Notes: a model not told the origin generated them from the sequence alone. A stretch of DNA of 64,000 bases from a virus (IMGVR_UViG_3300035182_000347:5433-69432), one strand, 5' to 3'; counted from the first letter of the stretch, positions 1 to 41,832 are shown. A program made the numbers and translations.

Positions 1-18
1 TACTATGCCTACGCCGCG

Positions 19-858
19 ATGGCTGCCGCCTACATGGCTGCCATCGACGAACTCCGGGCCGCGCTTGGCCTGGAGACGCACGCGGCTATCGCCGCAGCCG
101 CGCGTGAGGTGCGCAACCAGGCGGCGCGTGACGCTGCCGAAATCCGCGCTACGCAAGAAGTCGCGGCGCAAGCGAAAATCGCGGCGACAGAACAAGCCGC
201 CCGCACGGCGGCGTGTGACGCCATGACCACTCTGTTCGTGGATGGTCGCGGCCAGCGTGTCGCCATCGCCGACAAAACCTCGTATTCAGAGGGGAGGTTT
301 TCAAGCCTTGGCGGCTGGAACGAAGGCGGCGACGTAATTGGCCGCCGCATGAGCATGACGGCCGAAGACGGGCGGGACGTGACCGGCGAGGTCGTAGTTA
401 TGCCCGATGGCGAGTTTCGCCTGGAGCAGCCCTACTCCCGCTCATACCCCAATGGGGGCAAGTCCTGGCACGGTGGCAAGCTGGTGACTGTAGATACCAC
501 CGCCACCAGCGAGTGGCTGCCGGAAGGCGCGGTAGTGCCTGAGTGGCGCTCCGAGTCTCGGGTTGCATGCGACTGGGAAGCAGCCTACCAGGCGCGGGCC
601 GACGAAGTCATGCTTGCCGACCTGGAAGCCATGCCGGAAGCGTGGTTGCAAGGGCGGGCCAGGCTGGTAGAGGCGTTCTCCGCCGACTATTCCGCCACCT
701 ACGGCGGCCAGAACGGGCGGAAATACTCCGTGCGCACAGAATTACGCGCCGACCTGGACGAGTACCAGGCGGTACAACGCGCCGCCGATGCGGAAAAGTC
801 CGCCCGGATGGCATCTTCACCTTTCGCGGCGCTTGCCGCACTACGGAGAGCAGCATGA
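19..858 (+). CDS. hypothetical phage protein (start may lie upstream)
   Basis: 279-aa ORF; stop overlaps next ATG (ATGA at 855-858). Confidence 0.6.
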   Translation: MAAAYMAAIDELRAALGLETHAAIAAAAREVRNQAARDAAEIRATQEVAAQAKIAATEQAARTAACDAMTTLFVDGRGQRVAIADKTSYSEGRFSSLGGWNEGGDVIGRRMSMTAEDGRDVTGEVVVMPDGEFRLEQPYSRSYPNGGKSWHGGKLVTVDTTATSEWLPEGAVVPEWRSESRVACDWEAAYQARADEVMLADLEAMPEAWLQGRARLVEAFSADYSATYGGQNGRKYSVRTELRADLDEYQAVQRAADAEKSARMASSPFAALAALRRAA

Positions 859-1289
859 GCATCATCAATCTGACCCAGCACCCCGCTACGCCGGAGCAAG
901 TCGCGGCGGGCGTATTTGATCTGCCGCCGAATCTGCGCGGAGACCTGTCCGCGCTGCTTACCTTTGACGCCATCCCCGGCGTCGAGGAAATCAAGGTCCG
1001 CGCCCACGACATCGGCCTGATGGCGGCGATGCTCGCCAGTGGTGCGGATCGCACCGAGGAAGTGGACGGCGAGGTAGCGGACACCGACAGGGGCGCGTTT
1101 GCGCTGCAAGCCATGATAGGCGGCGCCCCCTACCTCATGGCCCCGCTTGAATCCGCCTTGCGCGAGAACGGCATTGAGCCGGTGTACGCATTCTCGGTAC
1201 GCGAAAGCGTCGAGCAGACCCAGCCGGATGGCACTGTGCGCAAGGTCAACATCTTCCGCCACGCCGGGTTTGTTCCGGCTGTGGCGTGA
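855..1289 (+). CDS. conserved-looking phage hypothetical protein
   Basis: Start reassigned to MSIINLTQHPAT (ATG 855) after GGAG; coupled to upstream stop. Confidence 0.7.
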   Translation: MSIINLTQHPATPEQVAAGVFDLPPNLRGDLSALLTFDAIPGVEEIKVRAHDIGLMAAMLASGADRTEEVDGEVADTDRGAFALQAMIGGAPYLMAPLESALRENGIEPVYAFSVRESVEQTQPDGTVRKVNIFRHAGFVPAVA

Positions 1290-1471
1290 AGCCCGAAAAA
1301 CCCAAGGCGAAGGGCGGGAAACGTGAAGGGGCTGGCAGGAAATCAAAGGATGGCGCAACCGATCTTGTTCAGGTCGGATTGCGCATCCAGGCAGACCAAA
1401 AGCCGAAGCTATTGCGCCTTGGGGGCAGTATTTGGGTACGCCGGAAGCTGGATGAGGCGGATGAAATCTAA
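1286..1471 (+). CDS. small DNA-binding protein with GGxRxGAGRK motif
   Basis: KGGKREGAGRK followed by a ribbon-helix-helix-like segment. Confidence 0.6.
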   Translation: MKPEKPKAKGGKREGAGRKSKDGATDLVQVGLRIQADQKPKLLRLGGSIWVRRKLDEADEI

Positions 1472-1500
1472 CTCCAACTTAGGCTATAAAGGAGAAGTAC

Positions 1501-1734
1501 ATGGAACCAAAGATTGATATTGAACCAGACGCATGGGCAACGAAAGATATGTGCATAGGGCCGCATTTAGGGAATGTACGTTACGACAAATTACCTATTC
1601 AAAGTTTCAACCCGTTGCAATACACCCATGAAAAACTCTACTCAGAGAAAGCGGTAATTGGCTTGATGAAGGCCGCTTACTATGATGGCTACACGGAACG
1701 AGAGCAGGAATTAAGGGCGGTGCCGAACGCCTGA
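1501..1734 (+). CDS. hypothetical protein
   Basis: AAGGAG SD; C-terminus (VPNA*) runs into attC-like site at 1722. Confidence 0.65.
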   Translation: MEPKIDIEPDAWATKDMCIGPHLGNVRYDKLPIQSFNPLQYTHEKLYSEKAVIGLMKAAYYDGYTEREQELRAVPNA

Positions 1735-1785
1735 ATTAACCGGACGCCGCTTTAGCGGCGGTCCGAGTTGAATGAAATGTTAGAA
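1722..1785 (-). repeat. attC-like recombination site 1
   Basis: Minus strand reads TTCTAAC-ATTTC-ATTCAACTCGGACCGCCGCTAAAGCGGCGTCCGGTTAAT-TCAGGC-GTTCGGC, closely resembling the aadA-type attC as recalled; extrahelical G on + strand. Confidence 0.85.
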
Positions 1786-2026
1786 CTGACGACTGCACAC
1801 TGTTTTAAGGTGGCGTACCACCTGACATTCACGGATCGTATGCCGTGGAGAGTTCGATAAATGACCGGGGAATCCACGTTTACGGTCAGCCGAAATGCCA
1901 GAACGCGAGCCGCAAGGCAGCGCACCAAAACTGGCCGGTGCGGACGATGGCAGTGTGCAGCCATGAGTTCTAACGCGGGTTATCCGCCACCCATGGAAGC
2001 GCGGCAACACTGAAAAGGAAACAACG

Positions 2027-2389
2027 ATGCGCGAACTGAACGAACACAAGATTAACCCCGGCAACGACACGCTCAAGATTACCGTGCTGGACGAACCTGG
2101 GCACGGTGGCGCAAACCACGCCTACGATATTGAGGGCGGCGAGGCGGTGCCGACACACCTGCGCTTTCAAAACGGACCGATCAACGCGGACGGTAACGGC
2201 GTGAATGGCATTACCCATGAGGCGCTGCTCGTGGTGCTGTGCGACCGCCTGCGCGGGTTTCAGGCGGGGCCGTATGCCTGCAAGGCGAACGCTTGCGCGC
2301 TGACACACTTGGAAGAAGCGCAACACTGGTTGCAGCAGCGCACCATCGAGCGTATGCGGCGAGGCGTCGAAGGCACGCATACGGTTTAA
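2027..2389 (+). CDS. tad1: Tad1-like (Acb2/Tad1 family) anti-Thoeris/anti-CBASS nucleotide-signal sponge
   Basis: MREL...HxY...FQNGPI..GVNGIT.E.L..L.DRL..FQ.GP.AC..N..A.T.LEEA..WL..RT..R.RRGVEGT matches the recalled Tad1 pattern; AAGGA SD. Confidence 0.8.
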   Translation: MRELNEHKINPGNDTLKITVLDEPGHGGANHAYDIEGGEAVPTHLRFQNGPINADGNGVNGITHEALLVVLCDRLRGFQAGPYACKANACALTHLEEAQHWLQQRTIERMRRGVEGTHTV

Positions 2390-2447
2390 TTTTGTGGGCC
2401 GCAGATGGCCTTCTCTCTGCGTTTTTCGCAGCCTTTCGGCCAGCGGC

Positions 2448-2505
2448 GGCTAACGCCTGAGTTCAGGCGCGGCCGGAGGCTGTCACCTGGAACGACGGGT
2501 TGTGC
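2448..2505 (-). repeat. attC-like site 2
   Basis: + strand GGCTAAC-gcctga-GTTCAGG...CCTG(G)AAC-gacgg-GTTGTGC, 58 bp. Confidence 0.8.
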
Positions 2506-2532
2506 ATCTTGCGGTGATACGGAGAAAGAAGA

Positions 2533-3303
2533 ATGAACAGAATTGTTTGCCAGTTTTCCTGCGGCGCTGCCTCGGCGGTGGCGACTAAGTTGGCGCTTTC
2601 GCAGTACGGCGACCGCTGCGTGGTGCTGAATGCCTACATTGCAAACGAGCATGAGGACAACCGCCGCTTTGCCGCCGACTGCGAAAAGTGGTTTGGGCGT
2701 ACGATGACCGTACTGCGTGACGAGAAGTACGACGCGGACGCTATCACTGTTTTTGAGCGGGTCGGCTACATCAAGGGGCCGAAGGGCGCGGCATGTACCA
2801 CCAGGATAAAGCGGGGTTTGCTTCGTGCGTTTGCGCAACCCGGAGACGTGCTAGTGCTCGGCTACACGGCGGAGGAACAGTGGCGATTTGACGACTTTGA
2901 AGCCAACTGGCCCGACCTCCCCGTAGTGGCTCCTCTGATCGAGCGCGGACTGACCAAGGAAGACTGTAAGGCGCTTGTTGAGCGCGCAGGGATGGTGCTG
3001 CCGATGATGTACCGGATGGGCTACGACAACGCCAACTGTATTGGCTGCGTAAAGGGCGGGCTTGGGTACTTCCGCGCAATCCGCGATGACTTCCCCGATC
3101 AGTTCGAGCGGTTGGCGCAAGCGGAGGACAAGGTTGCCGAACTGCATGGAACGAACGCCTACATCCTGCGCCACCGATCCGGGCCGCTTAAAGGGCATAG
3201 GTTCCCGTTGCGCGAGTTACCACCGGGTCCAATTGTAAGAAACGAGGCGCTACCGTCATGCGGGTTGTTTTGCGATGCAGCAGAGCAGGAATACGCGGCA
3301 TGA
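2533..3303 (+). CDS. PAPS-reductase-like / adenine nucleotide alpha-hydrolase protein with Cys cluster
   Basis: N-terminal FSCGAASAVA loop, CTTRIK, NANCIGCVK, terminal CGLFC. Confidence 0.7.
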   Translation: MNRIVCQFSCGAASAVATKLALSQYGDRCVVLNAYIANEHEDNRRFAADCEKWFGRTMTVLRDEKYDADAITVFERVGYIKGPKGAACTTRIKRGLLRAFAQPGDVLVLGYTAEEQWRFDDFEANWPDLPVVAPLIERGLTKEDCKALVERAGMVLPMMYRMGYDNANCIGCVKGGLGYFRAIRDDFPDQFERLAQAEDKVAELHGTNAYILRHRSGPLKGHRFPLRELPPGPIVRNEALPSCGLFCDAAEQEYAA

Positions 3304-3310
3304 TTTTGAC

Positions 3311-3399
3311 GCACAACGCTGAGCTAACCGGGCGCGATGAACCGGACGGCTCGAAGTAAACCCGCATTCCGCGCGCTCCGGTTGAGCGCCGTGTTGGAC
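3311..3399 (-). repeat. attC-like site 3
   Basis: GCACAAC-gctga-GCTAACCGG...CCGGTT(G)AGC-gccgt-GTTGGAC. Confidence 0.8.
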
Positions 3400-3409
3400 G
3401 GAGGATGAT

Positions 3410-3691
3410 ATGGATAGACCAATTACATACGGTGAGCTATTCGCGCGCATGAGAATGCCTGCATCTGTTGAGTTCGATGATCCGCGCTGGTGGCGGCCAA
3501 TCGGTATGGAGATTGATCGGCTGCGCGCGGCATTGAAGCCATTTTCCGCACATCCGCAATTCCAAGCGCCAGACGACTGGCCAGTGACGGTAATTGACCG
3601 GAACGAACCGACCGGAGACCCAGTTGCAGGGGTAACCGCTGGAGATTTTCGACGCGCGGCAGAGGCCATGACGCCCAAGTCACCTGACTGA
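3410..3691 (+). CDS. hypothetical cassette protein
   Basis: GGAGG SD directly after attC-like site 3; stop lies inside site 4. Confidence 0.6.
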   Translation: MDRPITYGELFARMRMPASVEFDDPRWWRPIGMEIDRLRAALKPFSAHPQFQAPDDWPVTVIDRNEPTGDPVAGVTAGDFRRAAEAMTPKSPD

Positions 3692-3734
3692 CGCGGCCTT
3701 ATCGCGGCAGGTCAGGTGGACTTCCGGGTTATGC
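3666..3734 (-). repeat. attC-like site 4 (left core degenerate, GAC instead of AAC)
   Basis: gcccaa-GTCACCTGAC...GTCAGGTG(G)AC-ttccgg-GTTATGC; left arm shares ACGCCCAAGTCAC with site 7. Confidence 0.7.
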
Positions 3735-3758
3735 CGCGCGAATACTACAAAGAAAGGA

Positions 3759-4052
3759 ATGGGCATGAAGATTCAAGGTCCGGTGGAAGTGGAATTGAAA
3801 ATCAGCATCACAAACGAAGAACAACATGGAGTCGTAACTATCAGCATGGGGAAAGGCAGCTACCCAACAGAAGGAGAACTGCGCGAACGGGTAGTTCAGT
3901 TTGAAAATGAAGAAATGCCGACAGGATTCCGCTTGATGACCAAGCGCGAATGGTGGGACTCTGTTTGCCCTCCGTCCTACGACGAGGACGAGGATGGTGT
4001 GCGCAACAAGACGCGCTTTGCTGTTCCAGGTGGCGATGACTACGACGCATAA
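3759..4052 (+). CDS. hypothetical acidic cassette protein
   Basis: AAGGA SD; TAA stop lies within GCATAAC core of site 5. Confidence 0.7.
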   Translation: MGMKIQGPVEVELKISITNEEQHGVVTISMGKGSYPTEGELRERVVQFENEEMPTGFRLMTKREWWDSVCPPSYDEDEDGVRNKTRFAVPGGDDYDA

Positions 4053-4115
4053 CACTGAATGTGAGGCGACTGGCGTGGATTTATGCGGCAGGTCGACTCG
4101 ACCGTACTGTTACCA
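4047..4115 (-). repeat. attC-like site 5
   Basis: GCATAAC...GTGAGGCGAC...GTCGACTC(G)AC-cgtact-GTTACCA. Confidence 0.7.
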
Positions 4116-4126
4116 CGGAGAATGGA

Positions 4127-4402
4127 ATGGAACATATATTTAGCGACAAAATCGTTACAGCGAAGAAGCGCCATCACTGCGACGCAAGCGAACAGTGGCG
4201 ACGAGCTGGCTTCACCATTGCCGACTGCGAAACGGACGAGCAGCGGCTGATGGTTGCCGCTGCCGAGGTAGACAACTGGCGCATCTTGCCTGGGCAAGCC
4301 TACCGTAGGGTGATCGGAATTCACGAAGGCGGATTGAGCACCTACAGGGCGAGGCCGGGCATGGACGCAGTGTGCAGCGACCTTGATATATGGGACGAGT
4401 GA
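4127..4402 (+). CDS. hypothetical cassette protein (HxCD motif)
   Basis: GGAG SD; AKKRHHCD and ILPGQAYRR resemble small phage Zn-finger-like proteins. Confidence 0.65.
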   Translation: MEHIFSDKIVTAKKRHHCDASEQWRRAGFTIADCETDEQRLMVAAAEVDNWRILPGQAYRRVIGIHEGGLSTYRARPGMDAVCSDLDIWDE

Positions 4403-4406
4403 GATT

Positions 4407-4463
4407 GCCTAACGCCTGAATTCAGGGGCGGCGAAGCCGTCCCGCTGGATTGACGTGTTAGGG
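4407..4463 (-). repeat. attC-like site 6
   Basis: GCCTAAC-gcctga-ATTCAGGGGCGGCGAAGCCGTCCCGCTG(G)ATT-gacgt-GTTAGGG, 57 bp. Confidence 0.8.
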
Positions 4464-4482
4464 GCGGAAATTTGGAGAAGAA

Positions 4483-4989
4483 ATGGGATACGGAGCACAC
4501 GAAAAACCGAACGAAGGCGCGACCAATATTTGGCTCACACCACCGCGCATTATTGAAATGCTTGGGCCTTTTGACCTTGACCCATGCGCAGCACCGGAGC
4601 CGCGACCGTGGCCGACAGCACACGCGCACTATGCCGAGGCAGACGGTGATGGGCTGCAACGGGAATGGCATGGGGTTGTGTGGGTGAACCCGCCATACGG
4701 CGACAAGGCCGAGGCGTGGCTGCACAGGCTGGCTAGGCACGGAGAGGGCATCGCGCTGGTTTTCGCCAGGACGGAAACGGCATGGTTTCAGCGCGTAGCG
4801 CGGCACGGCTGGCTTTTGTTTTTCCCGTCAGGGCGGCTGACCTTTCACAAACCGAATGGAGAGCGCGGGGTCGGTAATGCAGGGGCACCGAGCGTTTTCC
4901 TTGCCATTGGCGAGGAAAGCAAACTGCGCCTGAGAAGCTGCGGGATGGAAGGGTTCTTCTGCGAGCCTGAGTTTTTCGCGACGCAATGA
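4483..4989 (+). CDS. phage DNA N6-adenine methyltransferase (Dam-like family)
   Basis: WLTP, FDLDPCA, DGL..W, WVNPPY, ARTET.WF, GRL.F motifs. Confidence 0.9.
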   Translation: MGYGAHEKPNEGATNIWLTPPRIIEMLGPFDLDPCAAPEPRPWPTAHAHYAEADGDGLQREWHGVVWVNPPYGDKAEAWLHRLARHGEGIALVFARTETAWFQRVARHGWLLFFPSGRLTFHKPNGERGVGNAGAPSVFLAIGEESKLRLRSCGMEGFFCEPEFFATQ

Positions 4990-5079
4990 CGCCCAACGCA
5001 GGATATACACCAAGTGACCAGTAACACCCGAAAACACAGAATATAGGACACCAGTAAGCAACAGAACCAGCAGCGAAGA

Positions 5080-5145
5080 ATGAACAATGAACTGATGTTT
5101 TCGAGCAAGACCGATATGTTGTCAACACCACAAGCGTTCTTTTGA
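5080..5145 (+). pseudogene. N-terminal remnant of a second phage Dam-type methylase
   Basis: Translates MNNELMFSSKTDMLSTPQAFF*, resembling the recalled FSSK.D.W.TPQ.FF start of phage Dam proteins. Confidence 0.6.
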
Positions 5146-5150
5146 CAGCA

Positions 5151-5205
5151 ATAAAAACATTTGATGAAGAATCTTCTTGTGTTACCGGAAACGGTGGTCT
5201 ATAGT
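5151..5205 (+). promoter_or_regulatory. sigma70-type early promoter with upstream repeated operator-like element
   Basis: TTGTGT(5177)-17 nt-TATAGT(5200); 28-bp upstream block shared with 8208-8235. Confidence 0.65.
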
Positions 5206-5234
5206 TACACCATCAACAACGCACGGAGCGCAAA

Positions 5235-5984
5235 ATGAAAGTCGAAATCAAAAGTCGTTTTACAGGCGAGGTTCAATTCGCACTTGAGTGCGAAGGGAAC
5301 ACTGTGGCCATTACGCTGGCCGAGGCCGTAAGGTTAGGCACCAACCTGTATGGCGCATACCTTAGCGGCGCGGACCTTAGCGGATCGTCACTGGGGGGCG
5401 CAAATCTTCACTGTGCGAACTTGATGGGCGCTAGCCTTATGGACGCGGACTTGATGTCCGCGGACCTCTATGGATCTGATCTCAGCAGTGCGTCCCTTGA
5501 GGACGCGAATCTCAATGGCGCGAACCTTAGGTCTGCGAATCTTTATGGGGCCTACATGAGGTCCGCGAAACTTCGCAATGCAAACCTTAGCAATACGAAC
5601 CTTATGGACGCGGACTTGATGTCCGCGGATTTGGTTGCCGCCAATTTGTACGGTGCGGACTTTGTCAGTGCGAACCTATCTTGGGTGGATTTGCAGGACG
5701 CAAACATTGATGGCGCGGACCTTAATGGCGCGATCCTTAAGGGTGCCAATCTTGATGGCGCGTCCATCGGGGACGCTGGTAAGCTGACTGGCGAAAGCCC
5801 GTATTTCACTGTTATCTTTGGAGTTAATGCGGAACGCATTGAGTCGTTTCGCACAGAGAAGGGGATTTTTATCCGCAGCGGGTCATTCTTTGGCACTGCG
5901 GCGGATTTCCGGGGCAACAACCCCGCCGGCGGAGTGTACCAGGCCGCCTTGGACCTGGTTGAAGCCCATTATCGGCTGGTCTGA
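5235..5984 (+). CDS. pentapeptide repeat protein
   Basis: Long run of A(D/N)Lxx repeats; IKSRFTG N-terminus and IRSGSFFGT C-terminus. Confidence 0.9.
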   Translation: MKVEIKSRFTGEVQFALECEGNTVAITLAEAVRLGTNLYGAYLSGADLSGSSLGGANLHCANLMGASLMDADLMSADLYGSDLSSASLEDANLNGANLRSANLYGAYMRSAKLRNANLSNTNLMDADLMSADLVAANLYGADFVSANLSWVDLQDANIDGADLNGAILKGANLDGASIGDAGKLTGESPYFTVIFGVNAERIESFRTEKGIFIRSGSFFGTAADFRGNNPAGGVYQAALDLVEAHYRLV

Positions 5985-6033
5985 AGATTTCCGGGACCGC
6001 GTTCTCGCGGCCGGTTTCAAGTTTGGATTGGAG

Positions 6034-6234
6034 ATGAGAGTGAAAACTTCAAAGTATAGGGTGGCGGCTCTGCGAAAGCGGGCCGCCGCGATTGGCCTGA
6101 AGCGCCGTGAAATCTATTCGCATGAGGATGACTGGCCAGCAATTAAAGCGCTGGCAGAATATCTTATAAAACGCAGAGAGAAGGCCGCGAAGGTGGCGGA
6201 TAACGCCAATTTAACCATTACCAATTTCACTTAG
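6034..6234 (+). CDS. small basic hypothetical protein
   Basis: RVAALRKRAAAIGLKRREIY; start uncertain (ATG 6034 or GTG 6040). Confidence 0.55.
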   Translation: MRVKTSKYRVAALRKRAAAIGLKRREIYSHEDDWPAIKALAEYLIKRREKAAKVADNANLTITNFT

Positions 6235-6242
6235 GATCAGAC

Positions 6243-6698
6243 ATGACCATCACGCTTGAGGCCATCAAGGCAGAGCAGAAACGCATTGCCGCGATGATTT
6301 CGGAGTTTGAGAAGCAACCCGCTGCATTGGCATTCCCGATCAGCATCCGATTTCCCGATCTTGCGGAGGGCGAAAAGTTTGTCGGCGTCATCATCAGCGC
6401 GGACGGTAGCCGCAAGCATGCGGTGATTCTGCTGCCGGGCGAAGCCGATATCGCCAACTGGAAAACGCAACACAAGTGGGCAGAGAGCATAGGCGGCGAA
6501 CTATTTGACCGTGTTGAAGGCGCTCTGCTGTTCGCCGCGATGAAGGATGAATTCAAGCCCGAATGGTATTGGACTTGCGAGAAGCACGAAGTCGACTCGG
6601 CCTATGCCTGGGATCAGGACTTCGGACACGGCTACCAGTACGGCCACGATACGAGCTACAAGTTCAGAGCCCGAGCAGTCCGCAGGGTTTCACTCTGA
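6243..6698 (+). CDS. DUF1566/C-type-lectin-fold protein
   Basis: WAESIGGEL, WYWT, AYAW.QDF..G.Q, RARAVRR C-terminus. Confidence 0.8.
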   Translation: MTITLEAIKAEQKRIAAMISEFEKQPAALAFPISIRFPDLAEGEKFVGVIISADGSRKHAVILLPGEADIANWKTQHKWAESIGGELFDRVEGALLFAAMKDEFKPEWYWTCEKHEVDSAYAWDQDFGHGYQYGHDTSYKFRARAVRRVSL

Positions 6699-6769
6699 AC
6701 ACCATCGAAGTCTCACTATTGACGTAACTTCCCCCGCCATAAAAGACGGGGTTCTAGGAGCAAAATCTG

Positions 6770-7198
6770 ATGAACAACTGGAACTTCACCGGAAACATCG
6801 GCAAGGATGCCGAAACGCGATTCATCCAAAGCGGCGAGGCTGTCGTTCAATTCTCGGTCGGTGTGAAATCTGGCTACGGCGACAAAGCCACAACCACATG
6901 GGCGCGTTGCACCATGTGGGGCAAGCGTGGAGAGTCTGTCGCGCAATACCTCACCAAAGGATCGCTTGTCGGAATCTCCGGCGAGGTCACGCTGCGCGAA
7001 TTCACCAACAAGGAAGGCAACAAGCAGACGACGCTGGAAGTGCGCGTGAATGATCTGACGCTTATGGGAGGCCGAAAGGACGGCGGTAGCTCACCAGATA
7101 ACGAGTCACACCAGTCAAGCGCTCTATCTAGGTCAAGGCCGCAGCCAGCAAGCGGCGGCAATGCGTTTGATGATCTAGATTCAGATATCCCGTTCTGA
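6770..7198 (+). CDS. ssb: single-stranded DNA-binding protein
   Basis: GNIGKDAE, YLTKGSLV.ISG, acidic DSDIPF tail. Confidence 0.95.
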   Translation: MNNWNFTGNIGKDAETRFIQSGEAVVQFSVGVKSGYGDKATTTWARCTMWGKRGESVAQYLTKGSLVGISGEVTLREFTNKEGNKQTTLEVRVNDLTLMGGRKDGGSSPDNESHQSSALSRSRPQPASGGNAFDDLDSDIPF

Positions 7199-7247
7199 CA
7201 ATTACCTCAATGCCTCAAAAACGCAGAGAGAAGGCCGCGAAGGTGGC

Positions 7248-7312
7248 GGCTAACGCCCAAGTCACAGGCGCGGCGGCATCATCGACGCGTCCTGTAGACT
7301 GACGTGTTATGC
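7248..7312 (-). repeat. attC-like site 7
   Basis: GGCTAAC-gcccaa-GTCACAGG...CCTGT(A)GAC-tgacgt-GTTATGC. Confidence 0.8.
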
Positions 7313-7324
7313 ATTCGGGGTGAT

Positions 7325-7690
7325 ATGCCATACCTAAACGAAGACGGGACGATAGACACATGGAAAGGCTACATACGCAAATGCGGACACTGCGGAGCGA
7401 TAGAAAAGGTATTTGATGAGGCCACAGACCAAAACGTAGGACGATATGAAGAAATCTACGCATTGGAAGCTACGATATGCAAATTGTTCAGTGGGACGCG
7501 CGGGCCGGGGTTGCCAAATGTTTTGTGCGTTGAGTGCATGACGAGGCTGATGCCAAACCTGCACAAGCTGAGGGATGCAATTGAACTAGATATTTTCGTA
7601 AATAGACTGAAAGGTGCAATAAATGAAAAACGAAAGCAAGGAACTAAAGACAACCGGACAACTACGGACGATGCTTGCGAATGCTGCTAA
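7325..7690 (+). CDS. hypothetical protein with two CxxC pairs
   Basis: CGHC and CVEC; starts 13 nt after site 7. Confidence 0.6.
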   Translation: MPYLNEDGTIDTWKGYIRKCGHCGAIEKVFDEATDQNVGRYEEIYALEATICKLFSGTRGPGLPNVLCVECMTRLMPNLHKLRDAIELDIFVNRLKGAINEKRKQGTKDNRTTTDDACECC

Positions 7691-7862
7691 AGGTGTACTC
7701 AACGGAGACTTGGACATCGAGCGTGCCACGGCGCTGCACAAGCTGGCGAAGAACATCAGCGAGAGCCTGTACAGCGAAACCAAGATAGCAATGTTCAGCC
7801 ATGAGATCGGCAGCGCCATTCCGAAGATGGGAGACCTACCGCTTGGCGGCAGCGATGAATAA
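7623..7862 (+). CDS. hypothetical phage protein
   Basis: 79 aa; TAA stop lies in GAATAAC cassette end. Confidence 0.65.
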   Translation: MKNESKELKTTGQLRTMLANAAKGVLNGDLDIERATALHKLAKNISESLYSETKIAMFSHEIGSAIPKMGDLPLGGSDE

Positions 7863-7875
7863 CGCAGGAAACGAA

Positions 7876-8184
7876 ATGACAACGCCTATCGCACAAGGTC
7901 CGGATGAAAATGTGGAGCAGGACGCCGCCCGTTACCGCTGGTTGCGTGACCGGATGGAGGTGCTCTACAAAGAAACGATGTCTGGCCGGGAACCCCGCGC
8001 CACGCTGGCTATGCGCATTGGGCATGAATTTCTGGATAGCAAAATGCGCCCGGCCGCTGGGTGGATGGCCACCCTATATTTCGACGAATGCCGAGAGAAG
8101 GTGGACGCTGCAATAGACGATGCCATGAAGATGGCTAACAACCAAGCTAAGTGTCCTGGCTGCAGTTTTCCCGGTCCCGCTTGA
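7876..8184 (+). CDS. hypothetical protein (DAARYRWLR motif, Ead/Ea22-like)
   Basis: DAARYRWLRD...DAAIDDAM is common in phage early genes; runs into site 8. Confidence 0.65.
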   Translation: MTTPIAQGPDENVEQDAARYRWLRDRMEVLYKETMSGREPRATLAMRIGHEFLDSKMRPAAGWMATLYFDECREKVDAAIDDAMKMANNQAKCPGCSFPGPA

Positions 8185-8198
8185 GCGCAGAGTTAGCC
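8133..8198 (-). repeat. attC-like site 8
   Basis: GGCTAAC-aaccaa-GCTAAG...CTT(G)AGC-gcaga-GTTAGCC; cores perfectly complementary. Confidence 0.75.
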
Positions 8199-8207
8199 GC
8201 GACATCC

Positions 8208-8261
8208 ATAAAAACATTTGAGGAAGAATCTTCTTTCGAATCTTTGAATTATACGTATAAT
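8208..8261 (+). promoter_or_regulatory. sigma70-type early promoter, second copy
   Basis: TATAAT at 8256-8261; upstream block 27/28 identical to 5151-5178. Confidence 0.65.
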
Positions 8262-8285
8262 TAAATCGTCAACAACGAACAAGGA

Positions 8286-8525
8286 ATGAAAATGACGTCA
8301 ATGTTCAAAACCCAAGAGCATCCAATGATGGTTGAGGCCACCGCTCATATTTTTACCTTGCTTAACGGTAAGGTTTATGAGTTTGTGAACATAGACGGAA
8401 CAGACCAATTTGCGTTGTCTGGATCGTCCAACTATTACGACGCCGCCCAGTTTGGGCGCGCCAAAGAAAATGCGATCTCCAAGGGGGCAGTGTTCACCGA
8501 ATCTCGCGGCTGGACCTTCAAGTAA
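8286..8525 (+). CDS. hypothetical protein
   Basis: AAGGA SD downstream of promoter. Confidence 0.6.
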   Translation: MKMTSMFKTQEHPMMVEATAHIFTLLNGKVYEFVNIDGTDQFALSGSSNYYDAAQFGRAKENAISKGAVFTESRGWTFK

Positions 8526-8573
8526 GTAAACAACCCGCTCATAGATGGGCGGGAAACAAATCAGGAGAACACT

Positions 8574-8948
8574 ATGACCGCTTATACCCCATACGTCTAT
8601 GGCGCAAGCAGCACGACTTTTGAAGCCGAAAATGCCTGCGAAGTGGCTGAAAAGATTATGCGCTCGAACAGAATGCGAGAGGTGCTTGGCCTAAACGGCC
8701 TAGCAGGATACAACTTGCATGGCTTGAAGCTTGAAAGGGCTGTGATCACCAAGGACGGACTGACTCGTAAGCTGGTCATCCAGTGGCAGGCGATGCAGAC
8801 ACTGCCGCAAGAGCAAAATGGCGAGCATAACTCGATAGAAACCAAGACCGTTTATATGGAGCACGGTATCGACAACACGCCAGAAACAGAATGGCGTTGG
8901 GTGAAGGACGGAAAAGGCAAGCTAAATGCTCAAATTTTCCAATCCTAA
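8574..8948 (+). CDS. hypothetical protein
   Basis: AGGAG SD, 124 aa. Confidence 0.65.
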   Translation: MTAYTPYVYGASSTTFEAENACEVAEKIMRSNRMREVLGLNGLAGYNLHGLKLERAVITKDGLTRKLVIQWQAMQTLPQEQNGEHNSIETKTVYMEHGIDNTPETEWRWVKDGKGKLNAQIFQS

Positions 8949-9198
8949 AATCGGTGGCTCTCGCAATGGCGCAGGCCTGGCAACCGACGCTGCCGGCCTG
9001 AAAACCGCAAAGCACACCGTAACCCTGGACGTAGTGACGGTGGATCGCCTGAAGGAATTGGGTGCGGGAAATCTGTCTCGCGGAATACGACAAGCCGCTC
9101 GGCGACTGGCGGATAAGGCAAAAAGTGAGCCGACCAACCCGATGCAGCCCGCAATGCCAAGCATCGGCTGGCAAAGCAACACAAGGAGAGAACCATGA
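8926..9198 (+). CDS. small DNA-binding protein (GGxRxGAG motif)
   Basis: GGSRNGAG...VTLD...LGAGNLSRGIR. Confidence 0.6.
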   Translation: MLKFSNPKIGGSRNGAGLATDAAGLKTAKHTVTLDVVTVDRLKELGAGNLSRGIRQAARRLADKAKSEPTNPMQPAMPSIGWQSNTRREP

Positions 9199-10016
9199 GT
9201 AAGGTGAACGCATCAGACGTTTCAACCGAAGTCGAGGCTGAAATCGGCCTTCCGGTGTTGGTCGACAACGCCGTGGATTTGGTATTTAGAGGACCGGACG
9301 GGGCCATCGATCAGGCCCTTGCTACAGCCGACCGCTCAGCGGCCATGAACGCAGGCGACCGTTCGAAGGCCACGAACATAGGCGTCCGCTCGGCTGCCGT
9401 GAACATGGGTGACCATTCGGTTGCCATTAACGCAGGCGACCGTTCGACGGCAATAAACACTGGAGACCACTCAGAGGCCATGAACATGGGCTACCAATCG
9501 TCGGCCATGAATATGGGAGAATTTTCTGCGGCCACGAACACGGGAGAACAATCTGTGGCCATGAACATTGGCCGCCACTCAGCGGCCATGAACACGGGCT
9601 ACTGGTCGACGGCCATGAACGCGGGCGAATATTCGGAGGCCACGAACACTGGCAGCTACTCGGCTGCCGTGAACACTGGCGACCAATCGGTTGCCATGAA
9701 CGCAGGCTACCGTTCGACATCCATGAACACGGGGGAATACTCAACGTCCAAGAACGAAGGCGACCAGTCGTTTGCCCTGAACACGGGCTACCACTCGGTA
9801 GCCGAGGTGATGGGCACCGGTTCGGTCGCGGCATCCCTTAGCGCCCAAGGGCGCGCCCGCGCTGCCGCTGGCGGCGCAATCGTCCTCTGCTACCGCGACG
9901 AGATTAGCGGTCGCCTAATCAATATCCGCGCCAGCATAGTTGGCGAAAATGGCGTCAAGCCGGACACCTGGTACGTTCTCGACGCCGCTGGCGGATTTAT
10001 CGAGGTTACCGAATGA
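9195..10016 (+). CDS. 11-aa repeat protein (NTGxxSxAxxx)
   Basis: Roughly 14 tandem 33-nt repeats; C-terminal VGENGVKPDTWY; AAGGAG SD. Confidence 0.8.
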   Translation: MSKVNASDVSTEVEAEIGLPVLVDNAVDLVFRGPDGAIDQALATADRSAAMNAGDRSKATNIGVRSAAVNMGDHSVAINAGDRSTAINTGDHSEAMNMGYQSSAMNMGEFSAATNTGEQSVAMNIGRHSAAMNTGYWSTAMNAGEYSEATNTGSYSAAVNTGDQSVAMNAGYRSTSMNTGEYSTSKNEGDQSFALNTGYHSVAEVMGTGSVAASLSAQGRARAAAGGAIVLCYRDEISGRLINIRASIVGENGVKPDTWYVLDAAGGFIEVTE

Positions 10017-10103
10017 AAACGAACTGCGGGCAGACGACGAAGGCAACGAGCAATGCCAGTCCTATCTGACAGCGGGCCTGATTGAATACGCGGAGGAAGA
10101 GGA

Positions 10104-10469
10104 ATGCCAGTTTCTGAACTGATTGACGATCTACGCGGCCGGATAAACCCGGTATACGCGTCCCAGCCCGGAACAGAAAGCCATGAGCGCAGGCTGTGTG
10201 CCGAGGCACTGGAGGCGCAGCGCGACAGAATCAACGAACTTGAAGGAGCGATAGGCCGCGGCTACCGAATGCTGCTATCTGAGCCTGACACGAAAGGCGC
10301 TCTATTCAAAACCGAGAACATCCTGCGGGAAGCGCTGGAGCTGGCAGCCAAAAACCTGATCTCCGTCAGAGGCCGGCACCATACCGAGCAGGCGTACAAG
10401 CTGCCGCATGAGGCGGTTGAGAAAGTAGGCACCCTGCCGGAGTCGCAACGTAATGCCAAATCGTCGTGA
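10104..10469 (+). CDS. hypothetical protein
   Basis: GAGG SD, 121 aa. Confidence 0.55.
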   Translation: MPVSELIDDLRGRINPVYASQPGTESHERRLCAEALEAQRDRINELEGAIGRGYRMLLSEPDTKGALFKTENILREALELAAKNLISVRGRHHTEQAYKLPHEAVEKVGTLPESQRNAKSS

Positions 10470-10484
10470 GGATACTGTAGCGCC
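10463..10484 (+). promoter_or_regulatory. putative late promoter (variant GTCGTGAG), leaderless
   Basis: GTCGTGAG-GA-TACTGT-6 nt-ATG(10485). Confidence 0.65.
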
Positions 10485-10988
10485 ATGCCAAAAATAGTTA
10501 GATTCGACAAGGATGAAGCCCTTACCGACTGGAAAACCGGGAAATATACGGTACGCGATCTTGCGTCTAAATATAAGGTTTCACCGGGCACAATCCATAA
10601 GCTCGTTGTCGGAGTAGACAAGTCACTAGCCCCTTTAATAAACAAAGCAGTTGAAATAAAACAAGAACTTACAAATTTTAATGAACGGGAGATAAACAGA
10701 TTTGAACAAGAAGTAAGCGAGCGTACAAAACACATTCAATTCTTCACCAGCGCTAACGCACTGATTGCCAAGACGGTCATCAATAAAGTGCAGGCGGATG
10801 GCGATGAAGCCAGCTATCAGGACTTGAATGCAGCGGCCAATGCCATCACCAAGGCCCAAGAGAATGTTCTGGGCAAGCAGCCGGATAGTGTGGTCAATGT
10901 TGGGGTGACGCAGCGGACGGTGATTCAGTCGGCAGATCGGGTGCGCGAGATTCGACAAAAGCTGATAAGGGACATCTGTGGCGAGTAG
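10485..10988 (+). CDS. terS: terminase small subunit
   Basis: N-terminal HTH (TVRDLASKYKVSPGTI); overlaps terL. Confidence 0.75.
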   Translation: MPKIVRFDKDEALTDWKTGKYTVRDLASKYKVSPGTIHKLVVGVDKSLAPLINKAVEIKQELTNFNEREINRFEQEVSERTKHIQFFTSANALIAKTVINKVQADGDEASYQDLNAAANAITKAQENVLGKQPDSVVNVGVTQRTVIQSADRVREIRQKLIRDICGE

Positions 10989-12534
10989 CCTTTCGGAAGA
11001 GGATGAGATTCTGCGGGTAATGCTGCTGGATGACTTCCAGCTATTCGTCGAGTATTTCTTCCGGGCGCAGTACGGCCGGCGCTTTGTGGTGGCCGAGCAT
11101 CATGCGCAGATTACTGAGGCATTGACGCGGGTGGCGGCCGGAGAGTGCAAGAGGCTGATTATCAATATCCCGCCTCGCGCCGGAAAGACTGAGATTGCCG
11201 TCAAGATGTTCGTCGCTTGGTGCCTGGCGCACAATCCGGCGGCGAAGTTCATCCACCTTTCGTACTCCGATGACCTAGCACTGGACAACTCCAGCTCGAT
11301 TCGGGACGTGGTGAAGTCTGCCGAGTATCAGAAGCTCTTTCCGATTGCGCTCAAGGCTGACTCTGACAGCAAAAAGAAGTGGCTGACCAATGAGGCGGGC
11401 GGCATGTACGCGACGGCGGCAGGGGGCGCGATTACCGGATTCGGAGCGGGATTGATGCACCGAATCAGGACGGGAACGGAATGCGCGGCGGATGGATTTG
11501 GCGGCGGAATTTTAATTGACGACGCCTTGAAGCCAGATGATGCGTACTCGGAAACCGTGCGCGGCCGTGTTAATAATCGCTTCAACAACACCATCGCCAG
11601 CCGGGTGAATAGCCCGGATACGCCGATTGTCGTGGTCATGCAGCGGCTGCACGAAAACGACCTGACCGGCTATCTACTGGCCGGTGGAAGTGGCGAGAAA
11701 TGGGAGCACCTGTGCATTCCGGCGATCAATTCGCATGGTGAGTCAATTTGGCCAGACAAGTGGTCGATTGAACGGCTGCGGCAGATGGAAGCGGCAGACC
11801 CTTATACCTTCGCCGGGCAGTACATGCAGGTGCCGTCGCCACTTGAGGGGGGATTATTCAAGCCTGACAACATCGCCATCATTCTGGTATTGCCGGTTGA
11901 GTCAATCGAATGGGTACGCGGTTGGGACTTCGCCAGCACCACGACGGGCGACTGGACGGCGGGCGTAAAGTTGGGCAGATTGCGCGAGGGCCGATTGATT
12001 ATCGGCGATGTGGTGCGCATTCGCGTGGGTCCGGACGAACGCGATGCCGCGCTACTACATACGGCGGCGCGAGATGGCTATGAGTGCAAGCAATCCATCC
12101 CCCAAGACCCTGGGCAAGCCGGCGTAACGCAGGTCAAGTACCTCTTGCGCCAACTGGCCGGGTACAGCGTCAAGTCAAGCCCGGAGACGGGTAACAAGGT
12201 GGTGCGCGCCGAGCCGGTAGCGAGTCAGGTCAATGTCGGCAACGTGATGATGCTCAAGGCCGAGTGGAATTCGGCGTTGATCAACGAAATGCGCATGTTC
12301 CCCAATGGTACATGGGACGATCAGGTCGACGGTCTGAGCCGGGCGTTCGGTCTGCTGATCGGGCGCAACCCGTCAGAGATATTCATCCCTGACACCAGCA
12401 TCAAGGATGTCATTGCGGCGGCTGGGACGTGTGGGCGGTGCGCGTCATTCGGTGATGGCATGTGTAAAGAGAACTTCGGACTACAGGTAGGCGCATCGGA
12501 TATTGGGTGCGGGATGTTCATTGCGGGGTGGTAG
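10978..12534 (+). CDS. terL: terminase large subunit
   Basis: LIINIPPRAGKT Walker A, ILIDD Walker B, VMQRLHE.D, RGWDFA and DDQVD nuclease motifs. Confidence 0.95.
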   Translation: MASSLSEEDEILRVMLLDDFQLFVEYFFRAQYGRRFVVAEHHAQITEALTRVAAGECKRLIINIPPRAGKTEIAVKMFVAWCLAHNPAAKFIHLSYSDDLALDNSSSIRDVVKSAEYQKLFPIALKADSDSKKKWLTNEAGGMYATAAGGAITGFGAGLMHRIRTGTECAADGFGGGILIDDALKPDDAYSETVRGRVNNRFNNTIASRVNSPDTPIVVVMQRLHENDLTGYLLAGGSGEKWEHLCIPAINSHGESIWPDKWSIERLRQMEAADPYTFAGQYMQVPSPLEGGLFKPDNIAIILVLPVESIEWVRGWDFASTTTGDWTAGVKLGRLREGRLIIGDVVRIRVGPDERDAALLHTAARDGYECKQSIPQDPGQAGVTQVKYLLRQLAGYSVKSSPETGNKVVRAEPVASQVNVGNVMMLKAEWNSALINEMRMFPNGTWDDQVDGLSRAFGLLIGRNPSEIFIPDTSIKDVIAAAGTCGRCASFGDGMCKENFGLQVGASDIGCGMFIAGW

Positions 12535-41804: not shown

Positions 41805-41832
41805 ACGATTTACAACCTTCAGGACAATCAAA

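What the first reader, a model, noticed from the sequence alone, without database searches (positions are those of the whole stretch)
1722..8198. Phage early region organised as integron-like gene cassettes: eight attC-like sites, no integrase in view
Seen: eight 57-89 bp imperfect palindromes at 1722-1785, 2448-2505, 3311-3399, 3666-3734, 4047-4115, 4407-4463, 7248-7312 and 8133-8198. Each has the layout (N)YYYAAC-like core, 5-7 nt, L arm, variable stem-loop, L arm with one unpaired base (G in seven, A in one), 5-6 nt, GTT core. They sit at gene boundaries and differ in primary sequence while keeping structure. Established: this is the attC architecture recognised by IntI integrases, and site 1 read on the minus strand closely resembles the aadA attC as I recall it. 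Inference: the phage acquires or shuffles accessory genes (methylase, PAPS-reductase-like, unknowns) by integron-type single-strand recombination, using a host IntI or a phage recombinase outside the window. I am not aware of cassette arrays being a described organising principle of phage early regions.
Basis: partly seen in the sequence, partly recalled or inferred. Interest (0 to 1): 0.93.

Follow-up and report, generated by a model that had tools for sequence, protein, structure and literature searches.

The report
Reversed integron gene cassettes in a phage
This uncultured tailed phage keeps small accessory genes, one of them an anti-immunity gene, in swappable units bounded by the folded DNA sites that bacterial integrons use, but each site lies ahead of its gene and the phage has no integrase.

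Summary
Seven take ranks 1-7 of the 64-kb window; the eighth (4047-4115) is weak. Site 1 is 79.7% identical to a class 1 integron attC.

- Cassette ends show the integron footprint. In 19 of 36 adjacent site pairs the outer core bases are perfectly cross-complementary, against 6% for random pairs. Real bacterial arrays give 32 of 46.
- Related contigs share exactly one unit, from just after AAC of a site's 5' core through attC, leader and ORF to the next ...AA|C.
- Metagenome contigs lack two or four cassettes, with the joints in AAC.
- No integron integrase or other tyrosine or serine recombinase is in the 69-kb record.

The twist: the coding strand is the attC bottom strand, so each attC precedes its gene. 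This is the reverse of bacterial arrays and of the published phage TJE1.

Phage attC clusters are already in print (Qi et al. 2023). This scan has also noted reversed phage arrays on other genomes. I rate it a new variant of a known kind.

The parts
1722..1785 (+). attC site 1 (bottom strand on +); the stop codon of ORF 1501-1734 lies in its 5' part
   Evidence: R1 37.2 bits, E 7.2e-7. Its minus strand is 79.7% identical over 64 nt to the attC after qacL in a class 1 integron.
1968..1985 (+). Collapsed site: TTCTAAC-GCGG-GTTATCC, both cores without the hairpin
   Evidence: Coordinates. TTCTAAC is the perfect complement of site 1's 3' core GTTAGAA. In runs X1 and X2, contigs that match from 1976 onward are preceded by other letters ending like the 3' arm of a full site (table 7).
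2027..2389 (+). Cassette gene: Tad1 (Thoeris anti-defence 1) homologue, 120 aa
   Evidence: PDB Tad1 chains 8KBG and 7UAV, E 2.6e-17; phrog_2428, E 2e-32.
2448..2505 (+). attC site 2
   Evidence: R1 27 bits, E 2.4e-4. Its 3' core GTTGTGC is perfectly complementary to site 3's 5' core GCACAAC.
2533..3303 (+). Cassette gene: PAPS-reductase-like protein, 256 aa
   Evidence: phrog_424, E 7e-48.
3311..3399 (+). attC site 3
   Evidence: R1 28.3 bits, E 1.1e-4. Contig joints 3314/3318->4995 in run X4 start in its 5' core.
3410..3691 (+). Cassette gene of unknown function, 93 aa; its end overlaps the 5' half of site 4
   Evidence: ORF list; no Pfam or PHROG match.
3666..3734 (+). attC site 4 (5' core has GAC instead of AAC)
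   Evidence: R1 15.6 bits, E 0.16. Homology to L139 and L140 begins just after this core.
3759..4052 (+). Cassette gene of unknown function, 97 aa. With site 4 and its leader it forms a unit shared with other contigs.
   Evidence: The unit 3673-4052 is about 79% identical to L139, with no homology outside it. The same attC, leader and gene are in L140. 61 homologues in metagenomes.
4047..4115 (+). attC site 5, degenerate
   Evidence: R1 only 9.8 bits, E 4.4; fold z -1.1. Its 5' core GCATAAC is the perfect complement of site 4's 3' core. It is also the left end of the 944-nt skip seen in three runs.
4127..4402 (+). Cassette gene, 91 aa, phage family of unknown function
   Evidence: phrog_13613, E 2.6e-19; start position.
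4407..4463 (+). attC site 6
   Evidence: R1 38 bits, E 4.5e-7 on +, against 9.1 bits on -.
4483..4989 (+). Cassette gene: Dam-type DNA N6-adenine methyltransferase, 168 aa
   Evidence: PF05869, E 2.7e-9; phrog_111, E 1e-31.
4991..5026 (+). Hairpin-less terminal half site GCCCAAC plus a conserved ~30-nt element. It sits where attI would be when the array is read in canonical orientation.
   Evidence: Coordinates. It is the right end of the skips 4050->4995 and 3314->4995. The element after AAC is conserved in L024 and L137 behind different left flanks.
5235..7198 (+). Block without full sites between the two arrays: pentapeptide-repeat protein (5235-5984), ORF 6034-6234, ORF 6243-6698, SSB (6770-7198). 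A candidate half site GGATAAC lies at 6198-6204.
   Evidence: Pfam and PHROG matches; coordinates; no R1 hit above background here.
7248..7312 (+). attC site 7 (extra base is A)
   Evidence: R1 13.6 bits, E 0.51; alignment A1.
7325..7862 (+). Two overlapping ORFs (7325-7690 and 7623-7862) forming one block shared with L137
   Evidence: 94% identity to L137:1494-2043. The homology ends at GAATAAC|GC.
7857..7863 (+). Hairpin-less half site GAATAAC
   Evidence: L137 carries a full attC at the same point (R1 23 bits; sequence).
7876..8184 (+). ORF of 102 aa whose 3' end runs into site 8
   Evidence: only a weak phrog_13871 match.
8133..8198 (+). attC site 8; its own two cores are perfectly complementary
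   Evidence: R1 21.6 bits, E 0.0052; no stable fold (z +0.7).

Best explanation
The region is a cluster of genuine integron-type attC sites without an integrase (a CALIN), carried by a contractile-tailed phage and built in reverse.

The coding (+) strand is the attC bottom strand, the strand that integron integrases fold and cut. The crossover point AA|C therefore lies in the first core of each site. The mobile unit is C + attC hairpin + short leader with ribosome-binding site + gene + ...RYYYAA. Arrays run 1722-4997 (six full sites, one collapsed site, and a hairpin-less terminal half site where attI would be) and 7248-7863, with a solo site at 8133-8198.

Most likely mechanism (inferred): in a host that expresses an integron integrase, the phage's + strand becomes single-stranded and the sites fold. 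The integrase recombines two sites, or a site and a half site, so that cassettes are excised as circles and inserted into co-infecting phage genomes, prophages or arrays. The genes are then read by run-through phage transcription.

Shown here: the site architecture, its homology to attC, its polarity, unit boundaries at AA|C, the circle footprint, and the lack of any recombinase in the record.

Inferred: the enzyme (host IntI), the circular intermediates, and the timing.
For: 1. Identity of the sites.
- R1, built from bona fide attC sites, hits 7 of 8 sites above all background, and only on +.
- The same model finds the 3 published attC sites of phage TJE1.
- Site 1 is 79.7% identical to a class 1 integron attC.
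- The 17-mer TAACGCCTGARTTCAGG of sites 2 and 6 is also the bottom-strand start of an attC site in the Salinisphaera array beside its IntI.

2. Polarity.
- In four real integrons the extra base lies in the 3' arm of the bottom strand. In the phage it lies in the 3' arm of the + strand.
[quoted passage not shown] 2016, abstract read).

3. Reversal.
- 52 of 60 phage sites are followed within 70 nt, on the bottom-strand sense, by a ribosome-binding site, a start codon and an ORF. Only 5 of 60 show this on the other strand.
- Bacterial arrays give 10 of 76 against 30 of 76.
- TJE1 is canonical.

4. Circle footprint.
- The 3' core of site n and the 5' core of site n+1 are perfectly complementary in 19 of 36 adjacent pairs.
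- A site's own two cores are so in 6 of 60 cases, and random pairs in 6.2% (permutation p<1e-4).
- Real arrays give 32 of 46.

5. Unit boundaries.
- L139 and L140 share exactly site 4's interior, 3' core, leader and ORF up to GCATAA|C, with unrelated DNA on both sides.
- L137's homology ends at AAC|GC.
- Contigs skip 4051-4994 in three runs and 3315-4994 in one run, with AAC or AACGC shared at the joint.

6. No recombinase.
- TIGR02249, PF00589 and PF00239 find nothing in the 69-kb record.
- No IntI is found in any of 20 other site-bearing viral records.
- A generic tyrosine recombinase is found in 4 of 21.
Against: - No integrase, no host and no experiment: the catalyst is inferred. The record is only 75% complete.
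- The hairpins are not unusually stable: 2 of 8 have z below -2. Site 5 is within R1 background, and sites 4 and 7 have E of 0.16 and 0.51.
- Not every boundary is at AA|C. The left end of the L137 homology starts 4 nt after site 7's 3' core, and L137 has no site there.
- Of the 17 viral loci that encode a relative of the 97-aa gene, three carry an attC directly upstream (L140, and L148/L149, which look like duplicates). The other 14 show no R1 site next to the gene at E<=1.
- Identical site interiors sit between unrelated genes: 73 pairs at >=80% identity. This fits a homogeneous attC family, but gene conversion or homologous recombination between repeats could contribute.
- The read evidence is Logan contigs at 85% likeness with short sides of 24-42 nt, so some joints may come from relatives.
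- Only 3 of the window's own 8 junctions are perfectly cross-complementary.
Confidence: 0.7

Rival explanations
1. The sites are real cassette boundaries, but a phage-encoded recombinase, not a host integron integrase, moves them. It would lie in the missing quarter of the genome or belong to an unrecognised family.
For: The record is 75% complete. The reversed layout differs from bacterial integrons. Earlier notes of this scan describe integron-like phage arrays that use their own small recombinase in Bacteroidota phages (unchecked AI notes).
Against: The sites are sequence homologues of IntI substrates, including class 1 attC. Three site-bearing viral records that are 93-95% complete have no tyrosine recombinase at all. 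No protein family is shared by more than 5 of the site-bearing loci, and that one is SSB (only the up to 14 kb held per locus was searched).
Confidence: 0.1
2. The arrays are fossils. Cassettes were assembled by integrase in the past, or picked up from a bacterial array. The hairpins now persist as inert spacers or as RNA elements in the polycistronic transcript (stabilisers, processing or weak termination signals).
For: Each site lies between a stop codon and the next ribosome-binding site, on the transcribed sense. In one group the conserved block runs 16 nt past the site through the ribosome-binding site. Several sites are degenerate or collapsed. Qi et al. note that attC sites are thought to contain weak terminators.
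Against: AAC and GTT stay invariant while the outer core bases pair with the neighbouring site, not with their own partner. An RNA hairpin has no need for that. None of the eight sites is called terminator-like (11 found, 12.7 expected, none at a site). Cassette-level differences among near relatives and within four metagenomes point to recent movement. The genes are phage-type, not a captured bacterial array.
Confidence: 0.12
3. The repeats are linkers for ordinary homologous recombination, like the promoter-stem-loop cassettes of T4-type phages, and resemble attC only by descent or chance.
For: Near-identical 50-60-nt repeats flank unrelated small genes in many phages. A 31-nt direct repeat (6169-6199 and 7219-7249) and a 26-nt repeat (5153-5178 and 8210-8235) show that repeat-mediated rearrangement is plausible here.
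Against: Homologous exchange within repeats would not give cross-complementary outer core bases (19 of 36). It would not give homology that starts exactly at the core triplet. It would not give half sites that keep only RYYYAAC.
Confidence: 0.05

Closest known systems
CALINs (clusters of attC sites lacking an integrase) in virulent phages: Tetrasphaera phage TJE1, Pseudoalteromonas phage PH101, Polaribacter phage P12002L (Qi et al. 2023, PMC9892861; abstract, section 3.4, tables and legends read)
   Same: attC sites between small co-directional genes in a phage with no integron integrase. A DNA methyltransferase is among the cargo. The sites are detectable with an attC covariance model.
   Different: Here the genes run on the attC bottom strand, so the attC is upstream of its gene. 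In TJE1, R1 places the three sites on the strand opposite to the genes, each at a gene's 3' end, which is the canonical layout. Only TJE1 was checked. There are also more sites here (8 in the window and at least 11 in the record, against 3 in TJE1). The site family is shared by many uncultured phages. There are hairpin-less terminal half sites and a Tad1 gene. The paper's supplementary list of all 17 CALINs could not be seen.
Sedentary chromosomal integrons of Gammaproteobacteria (arrays beside IntI in Salinisphaera, Marinobacter and Wenzhouxiangella fetched here; Vibrio-type arrays recalled)
   Same: A homogeneous attC family is repeated between unrelated genes. Cassette ends are cross-complementary (32 of 46 there, 19 of 36 here). 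R and L boxes and spacers are shared down to a 17-nt identity.
   Different: There is no IntI, no recognised attI and no cassette promoter. The element is on a phage. Gene orientation is reversed. The sites are shorter (56-89 nt against 60-138 nt).
Off-site cassette insertion by integron integrase into simple genomic sites (preprint 10.1101/2022.09.11.507474; only the start of the abstract seen in a search listing)
   Same: It offers a route by which an integrase could place cassettes into a genome that has no attI. The hairpin-less half sites at 4991-4997 and 7857-7863 could be such landing sites.
   Different: Not tested here. The half sites carry a conserved ~30-nt tail in three phages, which suggests a dedicated site more than a chance triplet.
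PeSL promoter-stem-loop 'mobile regulatory cassettes' of T4-type phages
   Same: Repeated intergenic elements flank small accessory genes in a plastic region of a myovirus, and are proposed to shuffle genes through circles.
   Different: PeSLs carry an early promoter and are thought to work by homologous recombination. The present sites are attC homologues with a site-specific footprint, and no promoter or terminator is called in them.

Membership tests
Integron attC recombination site | Outer inverted cores RYYYAAC ... GTTRRRY (R boxes) | tested here: met
   GTT is present in 8 of 8 sites and AAC in 7 of 8 (site 4 has GAC). These pairs are invariant or nearly so across 20 phage sites.
Integron attC recombination site | Inner L boxes with an extra-helical base on one arm, and a 5-6 nt unpaired spacer between the R and L boxes | tested here: met
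   The extra base is G in 7 sites and A in 1, always in the 3' arm of the + strand. Spacers are 5-6 nt (alignment A1). The layout matches bona fide arrays.
Integron attC recombination site | Detection by a covariance model of known attC sites | tested here: met
   IntegronFinder's own model was not available. The surrogate R1 (13 bona fide sites) puts 7 of 8 above all background and gives 5 of 8 an E<0.01; 1 of 8 is within background. Positive control: 3 of 3 TJE1 sites are found. R1 E-values are rough because calibration was short.
Integron attC recombination site | Recombination by an integron integrase on the folded bottom strand | not testable with these tools
   This needs an attC x attI conjugation assay. 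Qi et al. showed it for 5 of 6 other phage attC sites.
Integron gene cassette array | Cassette ends that rebuild a paired R box on circularisation (cross-complementary neighbouring cores) | tested here: met
   19 of 36 adjacent pairs are perfect, against 6.2% of random pairs. The control on real arrays gives 32 of 46. Within the window, 3 of 8 junctions are perfect and 2 more match 3 of 4 bases.
Integron gene cassette array | Gene upstream of its attC, on the attC top strand (canonical cassette polarity) | tested here: not met
   Genes lie on the bottom strand with the attC upstream: 52 of 60 against 5 of 60. The shared unit is attC, leader, then ORF.
Complete integron | intI gene with adjacent attI and cassette promoter | tested here: not met
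   TIGR02249 finds 0 matches in the 69-kb record. PF00589 and PF00239 find 0. A candidate attI-like half site is at 4991-5026, but no integrase is beside it.
CALIN (cluster of attC sites lacking an integrase) | Two or more attC sites within a few kb and no integron integrase nearby (definition recalled from the IntegronFinder papers) | tested here: met
   Sites 1-6 lie within 2.8 kb, with sites 7 and 8 further on. No IntI is in the record.
Intrinsic terminators / T4-type PeSL regulatory cassettes | G+C-rich stem followed by a T run; or an early promoter joined to a stem-loop | tested here: not met
   None of the 11 terminator-like or 3 promoter-like calls in 1-10500 falls on a site.

The most novel reading that the evidence does not exclude
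Many unrelated uncultured phages share a phage-side cassette pool that mirrors the bacterial integron. Its units are of reversed polarity (attC, leader, gene) and are silent if captured by a bacterial integron, but are expressed in phage operons. They land at short hairpin-less attI-like sites. They are moved by the host's own, SOS-inducible integrase during infection, so that phages trade anti-defence genes such as Tad1 and methyltransferases with the same machinery bacteria use to trade defence genes.
Probability: 0.4. Interest if true: 0.85.

Novelty: new variant of a known kind. Interest (0 to 1): 0.72.

Why it matters
Integrons are known as bacterial gene-capture devices. Recent preprints report that their cassettes hold many anti-phage defence systems (10.1101/2024.07.02.601686 and 10.1101/2024.07.02.601719; only starts of abstracts seen in listings).

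The same kind of site bounds phage accessory genes here, including a clear Tad1 anti-Thoeris homologue and a Dam methylase. Both sides of the conflict may therefore draw on one recombination system.

The reversed polarity would keep phage cassettes and bacterial cassettes functionally apart even though they share an enzyme. That is a testable idea about how the two pools stay separate.

In practice, the small unknown genes between sites (3410-3691, 3759-4052, 4127-4402, 7325-7862, 7876-8184) are good candidates for new counter-defence functions. The attC family could also serve as a probe for such genes in viromes, and as a hint to hosts that carry integrons.

Tried and rejected
- **Rfam:** at gathering thresholds it gave nothing for the window.
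- **Cultured phages:** megablast of 1-12000 against 50,697 phage records found nothing. The distant search found only 9 gene-level matches. Site 6 alone found only a chance match. No cultured relative or host was obtained.
- **Folding energies** were not decisive.
- **My own palindrome scanner** was far too permissive (168 candidates on one strand) and was dropped in favour of R1.
- **Summed ORF length per strand** did not tell the coding strand in this G+C-rich DNA. I replaced it with the ribosome-binding-site-plus-start test.
- **First linkage test:** my first attempt to link sites to flanking genes failed for lack of homologous genes among the pattern-selected loci (1 pair each way among 1770). 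L139 and L140 later answered the question.
- **N4-like idea:** I first suspected an N4-like phage with hairpin promoters. PHROG matches show a sheath-bearing phage. The repeats at 5153-5178 and 8210-8235 look like an operator or promoter element and remain uninterpreted.
- **Genome-collection scan:** the 17-mer scan gave 102 loci, most of them apparent chance matches. R1 was run on 100 of the 102 (L125 and L126 left out) and gave 54 hits at E<=0.01, concentrated in about 20 proteobacterial loci. No host can be named from this.
- **Co-occurring recombinase:** I searched for a protein family that co-occurs with the sites. At most 5 contigs share a family, and that family is SSB.
- **Joints not used:** 2465->4409, 3392->4424, 6193->7913, 7963->8077, 2611->3022, 5221->5983 and 8285->8365 are out of register, short-sided or unexplained, so I made no use of them. 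Parts of the stretch without cover in a run are not interpreted.
- **Terminal half sites:** support is only moderate (12 of 23 last sites have the exact complement downstream, against 5 of 23 in the upstream control).
- **Published phage arrays:** only 1 (TJE1) was checked for polarity. PH101 and P12002L were not fetched.
- **Supplements:** supplementary tables of Qi et al. 2023 were not seen and may list arrays like this one.
- **Literature:** searches found no text on reversed phage cassettes. That covers only the held library.

Full report
**What the record is.** The window is bases 5433-69432 of a 69,432-base linear IMG/VR virus record rated 75% complete. All long ORFs lie on the + strand. 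PHROG matches identify a large terminase (10978-12534), portal (12563-14779), major head protein (41794-43341) and tail sheath (50341-52056). It is therefore a real contractile-tailed phage. The finding lies in the small-gene region upstream of the packaging genes. No close relative exists among 50,697 deposited phage records.

- arrays lying beside integron integrase genes (scores over the TIGR02249 cut-off) in a Salinisphaera, a Marinobacter and a Wenzhouxiangella genome;
- a class 1 integron on plasmid pVAS3-1, ordered intI1, qnrVC4, qacL, aac(6')-Ib, cmlA5, blaOXA-10.

Thirteen of these sites, written as bottom strands, gave covariance model R1. I left out the one site that matched my search motif.

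R1 was run over the whole window, both strands, filters off, and listed 17 hits at E<=10. The best unrelated hit has 11.3 bits. The eighth site (4047-4115) has 9.8 bits.

As a positive control, R1 finds the three attC sites of the published phage TJE1.

Site 1, read on the minus strand, is 79.7% identical over 64 nt to the attC that follows qacL in the class 1 integron. It finds 569 plasmid records in all. Across 20 phage sites the R and L helices are kept through compensatory changes.

Two weaknesses remain. Folding energy alone is weak, and Rfam has no matching family.

**Polarity.** In all four real integrons the strand that carries the cassette genes (top strand) has the extra base in its 5' arm. 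The bottom strand reads RYYYAAC, spacer, L', loop, L'' with the extra base, spacer, GTTRRRY. The phage's + strand has this bottom-strand form. R1, a bottom-strand model, scores site 6 at 38 bits on + and 9.1 bits on -.

According to the abstract of Nivina et al. 2016, integrases select the bottom strand, and the position of the extra-helical bases directly favours that choice. The phage genes therefore run on the recombining strand, the opposite of the usual cassette.

This is general for the family, as these counts show:

| Set | Sites followed within 70 nt by RBS + start + ORF >=40 aa, bottom-strand sense | Same test, other strand |
|---|---|---|
| Phage sites (n=60) | 52 | 5 |
| Bacterial array sites (n=76) | 10 | 30 |

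The 60 phage sites were assembled as follows: 52 viral R1 hits with E<0.05, minus 3 rows of L015 that duplicate L001, plus 11 sites of this record.

In TJE1 the sites lie on the strand opposite to the genes and at their 3' ends, which is the canonical form.

**Are these cassettes or just hairpins?** Three lines say cassettes.

1. *Circle footprint.* If a unit is cut out at the conserved triplets and closed, its two ends must rebuild a paired R box. The four outer bases of the 3' core of site n should then complement those of the 5' core of site n+1, not those of its own 5' core.

   | Comparison | Perfectly complementary |
   |---|---|
   | Adjacent phage sites (n with n+1) | 19 of 36 |
   | A site's own two cores | 6 of 60 |
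   | Random pairs from different contigs | 6.2% (permutation p<1e-4) |
   | Adjacent sites in real bacterial arrays | 32 of 46 |

   In the window, the junctions site 1 to the collapsed site, site 2 to site 3, and site 4 to site 5 are perfect.

2. *Shared units.* Metagenome contig L139 is about 79% identical to the window from just after the core of site 4 (3673), through the site's interior, GTTATGC, the leader and ORF 3759-4052, to GCATAA|C. It is unrelated on both sides, and a different attC and gene follow. Viral contig L140 carries the same attC, leader and gene behind yet another neighbour. A 41%-identical homologue in a lower-G+C phage (L148/L149) is also preceded by an attC whose 3' core complements the next 5' core. 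Contig L137 shares 7316-7865 at 94%, ending at GAATAAC|GC. There L137 continues with a full attC, while the window has a hairpin-less sequence.

3. *Population variants.* Four public runs from four studies of sediment and microbial-mat metagenomes hold parts of the region as Logan contigs.
   - Contigs in three runs join 4050 to 4995 with AAC common to both sides. This removes site 5, its gene, site 6 and the methylase.
   - A contig in one run joins 3314 to 4995 with AACGC in common, which removes four units.
   - These joints have short sides (24-42 nt) and were laid at 85% likeness. I treat them as supporting evidence only.

The right-hand end of these skips is a half site, GCCCAAC (4991-4997), with no hairpin. 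The 30 nt after its AAC are conserved in L024 and L137 behind different left flanks. Read in canonical orientation, this is where attI would sit.

**The site family.** The 17-mer shared by sites 2 and 6 occurs in 24 IMG/VR loci, and 19 of them have a complete site. R1 finds 69 hits at E<=1 in the 24 loci plus the record's upstream part, with arrays of 4 to 7 sites. Three more sites lie in this record upstream of the window.

Apart from two close relatives (L008 and L024), these contigs share little but the sites themselves with this phage at the DNA level. Site interiors that are 80-100% identical stand between unrelated genes (73 pairs). Homology starts sharply at AAC. This is the pattern of a sedentary chromosomal integron, but spread over different phages.

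**The enzyme.** None is in view.
- TIGR02249, PF00589 and PF00239 find nothing in the record.
- No integron integrase is found in any of 20 other site-bearing viral records.
- A generic tyrosine recombinase is found in 4 of 21, and in none of the three records that are 93-95% complete.
- The one I inspected (L002) looks like an ordinary phage integrase.
- No other protein family recurs with the sites.

The simplest reading is that a host integron integrase acts in trans, as Qi et al. showed to be possible for other phage attC sites. This is inference.

**Cargo.**
- ORF 2027-2389 is a clear Tad1 homologue (E 2.6e-17 to solved Tad1 structures).
- ORF 4483-4989 is a Dam-type methyltransferase.
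- ORF 2533-3303 is PAPS-reductase-like.
- The rest are small proteins of phage families or without matches.

**Rivals.** An RNA or terminator role does not explain invariant AAC/GTT with outer bases that pair with the neighbouring site, and no site is called terminator-like. Repeat-mediated homologous recombination does not explain the footprint or the sharp boundaries. It may still add to the shuffling, because direct repeats are present. A dedicated phage recombinase cannot be excluded in an incomplete record.

**What is known.** Qi et al. 2023 screened 10,705 phage genomes and found 17 CALINs. They showed IntI1 recombination for five of six sites and noted methyltransferase cargo. In the passages I read they do not discuss gene polarity relative to the attC strand. 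Five searches of the held library found no other paper on the subject.

I tested those four points here.

**Verdict.** This is a new, reversed variant of a known kind, with unusually direct comparative evidence that the units move.

Noticed in passing
window 2027-2389: A clear homologue of the Thoeris anti-defence sponge Tad1 (E 2.6e-17 to PDB 8KBG and 7UAV). It sits behind a collapsed attC. Contigs of relatives in four runs cover 1976-2395 at about 88% identity.
   Followed up: partly
window 6169-6199 and 7219-7249: A 31-nt perfect direct repeat. Each copy runs into a core (GGATAAC at 6198-6204, GGCTAAC of site 7). The first copy is the 3' end of ORF 6034-6234; the second is non-coding. It suggests that the 1-kb block with ORF 6243-6698 and SSB was inserted or duplicated at a core, but I have no explanation that fits.
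   Followed up: no
window 5153-5178 and 8210-8235: A 26-nt repeat (one mismatch) containing the palindrome GAAGAATCTTC, each copy about 35-40 nt upstream of a -10-like TATAGT or TATAAT and a gene start. It is probably a regulated promoter. In all four runs, contigs join the end of site 8 to the 5151 copy through 10 other letters.
   Followed up: partly
L136 (record bases 1671-1740, 2672-2739, 5036-5156): Three more attC sites upstream of the window (R1 25.7, 24.4 and 28.2 bits). Two are followed by strong -35/-10-like promoters. BLAST hints at further sites near 3877-3944 and 4408-4477 of the record.
   Followed up: partly
L148 and L149, 231-660: Phages with lower G+C (site G+C 0.44-0.49) carry a 41%-identical homologue of the 97-aa gene in the same reversed cassette form, with perfectly cross-complementary cores. 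The arrangement is therefore not confined to one attC type or host G+C range.
   Followed up: partly
L001, L002, L005, L011, L015, L019, L021 (positions): After the last cassette of many arrays stands a hairpin-less RYYYAAC that complements the last 3' core. It is followed by a loosely similar motif (about 5 nt, then TAG or TAA, then G or C-rich bases), like an R box plus L box without the second arm. This is a possible attI-like consensus shared by unrelated phages.
   Followed up: partly
window 5235-5984: A 249-aa pentapeptide-repeat protein directly behind the first repeat-promoter. Its function is unknown. Similar genes occur in Caulobacter phages.
   Followed up: no
L002 8149-9298: An ordinary-looking phage tyrosine integrase lies just downstream of a four-site reversed array, next to what looks like a tRNA-like stretch. 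It is an example of the site family in a probably temperate phage.
   Followed up: no
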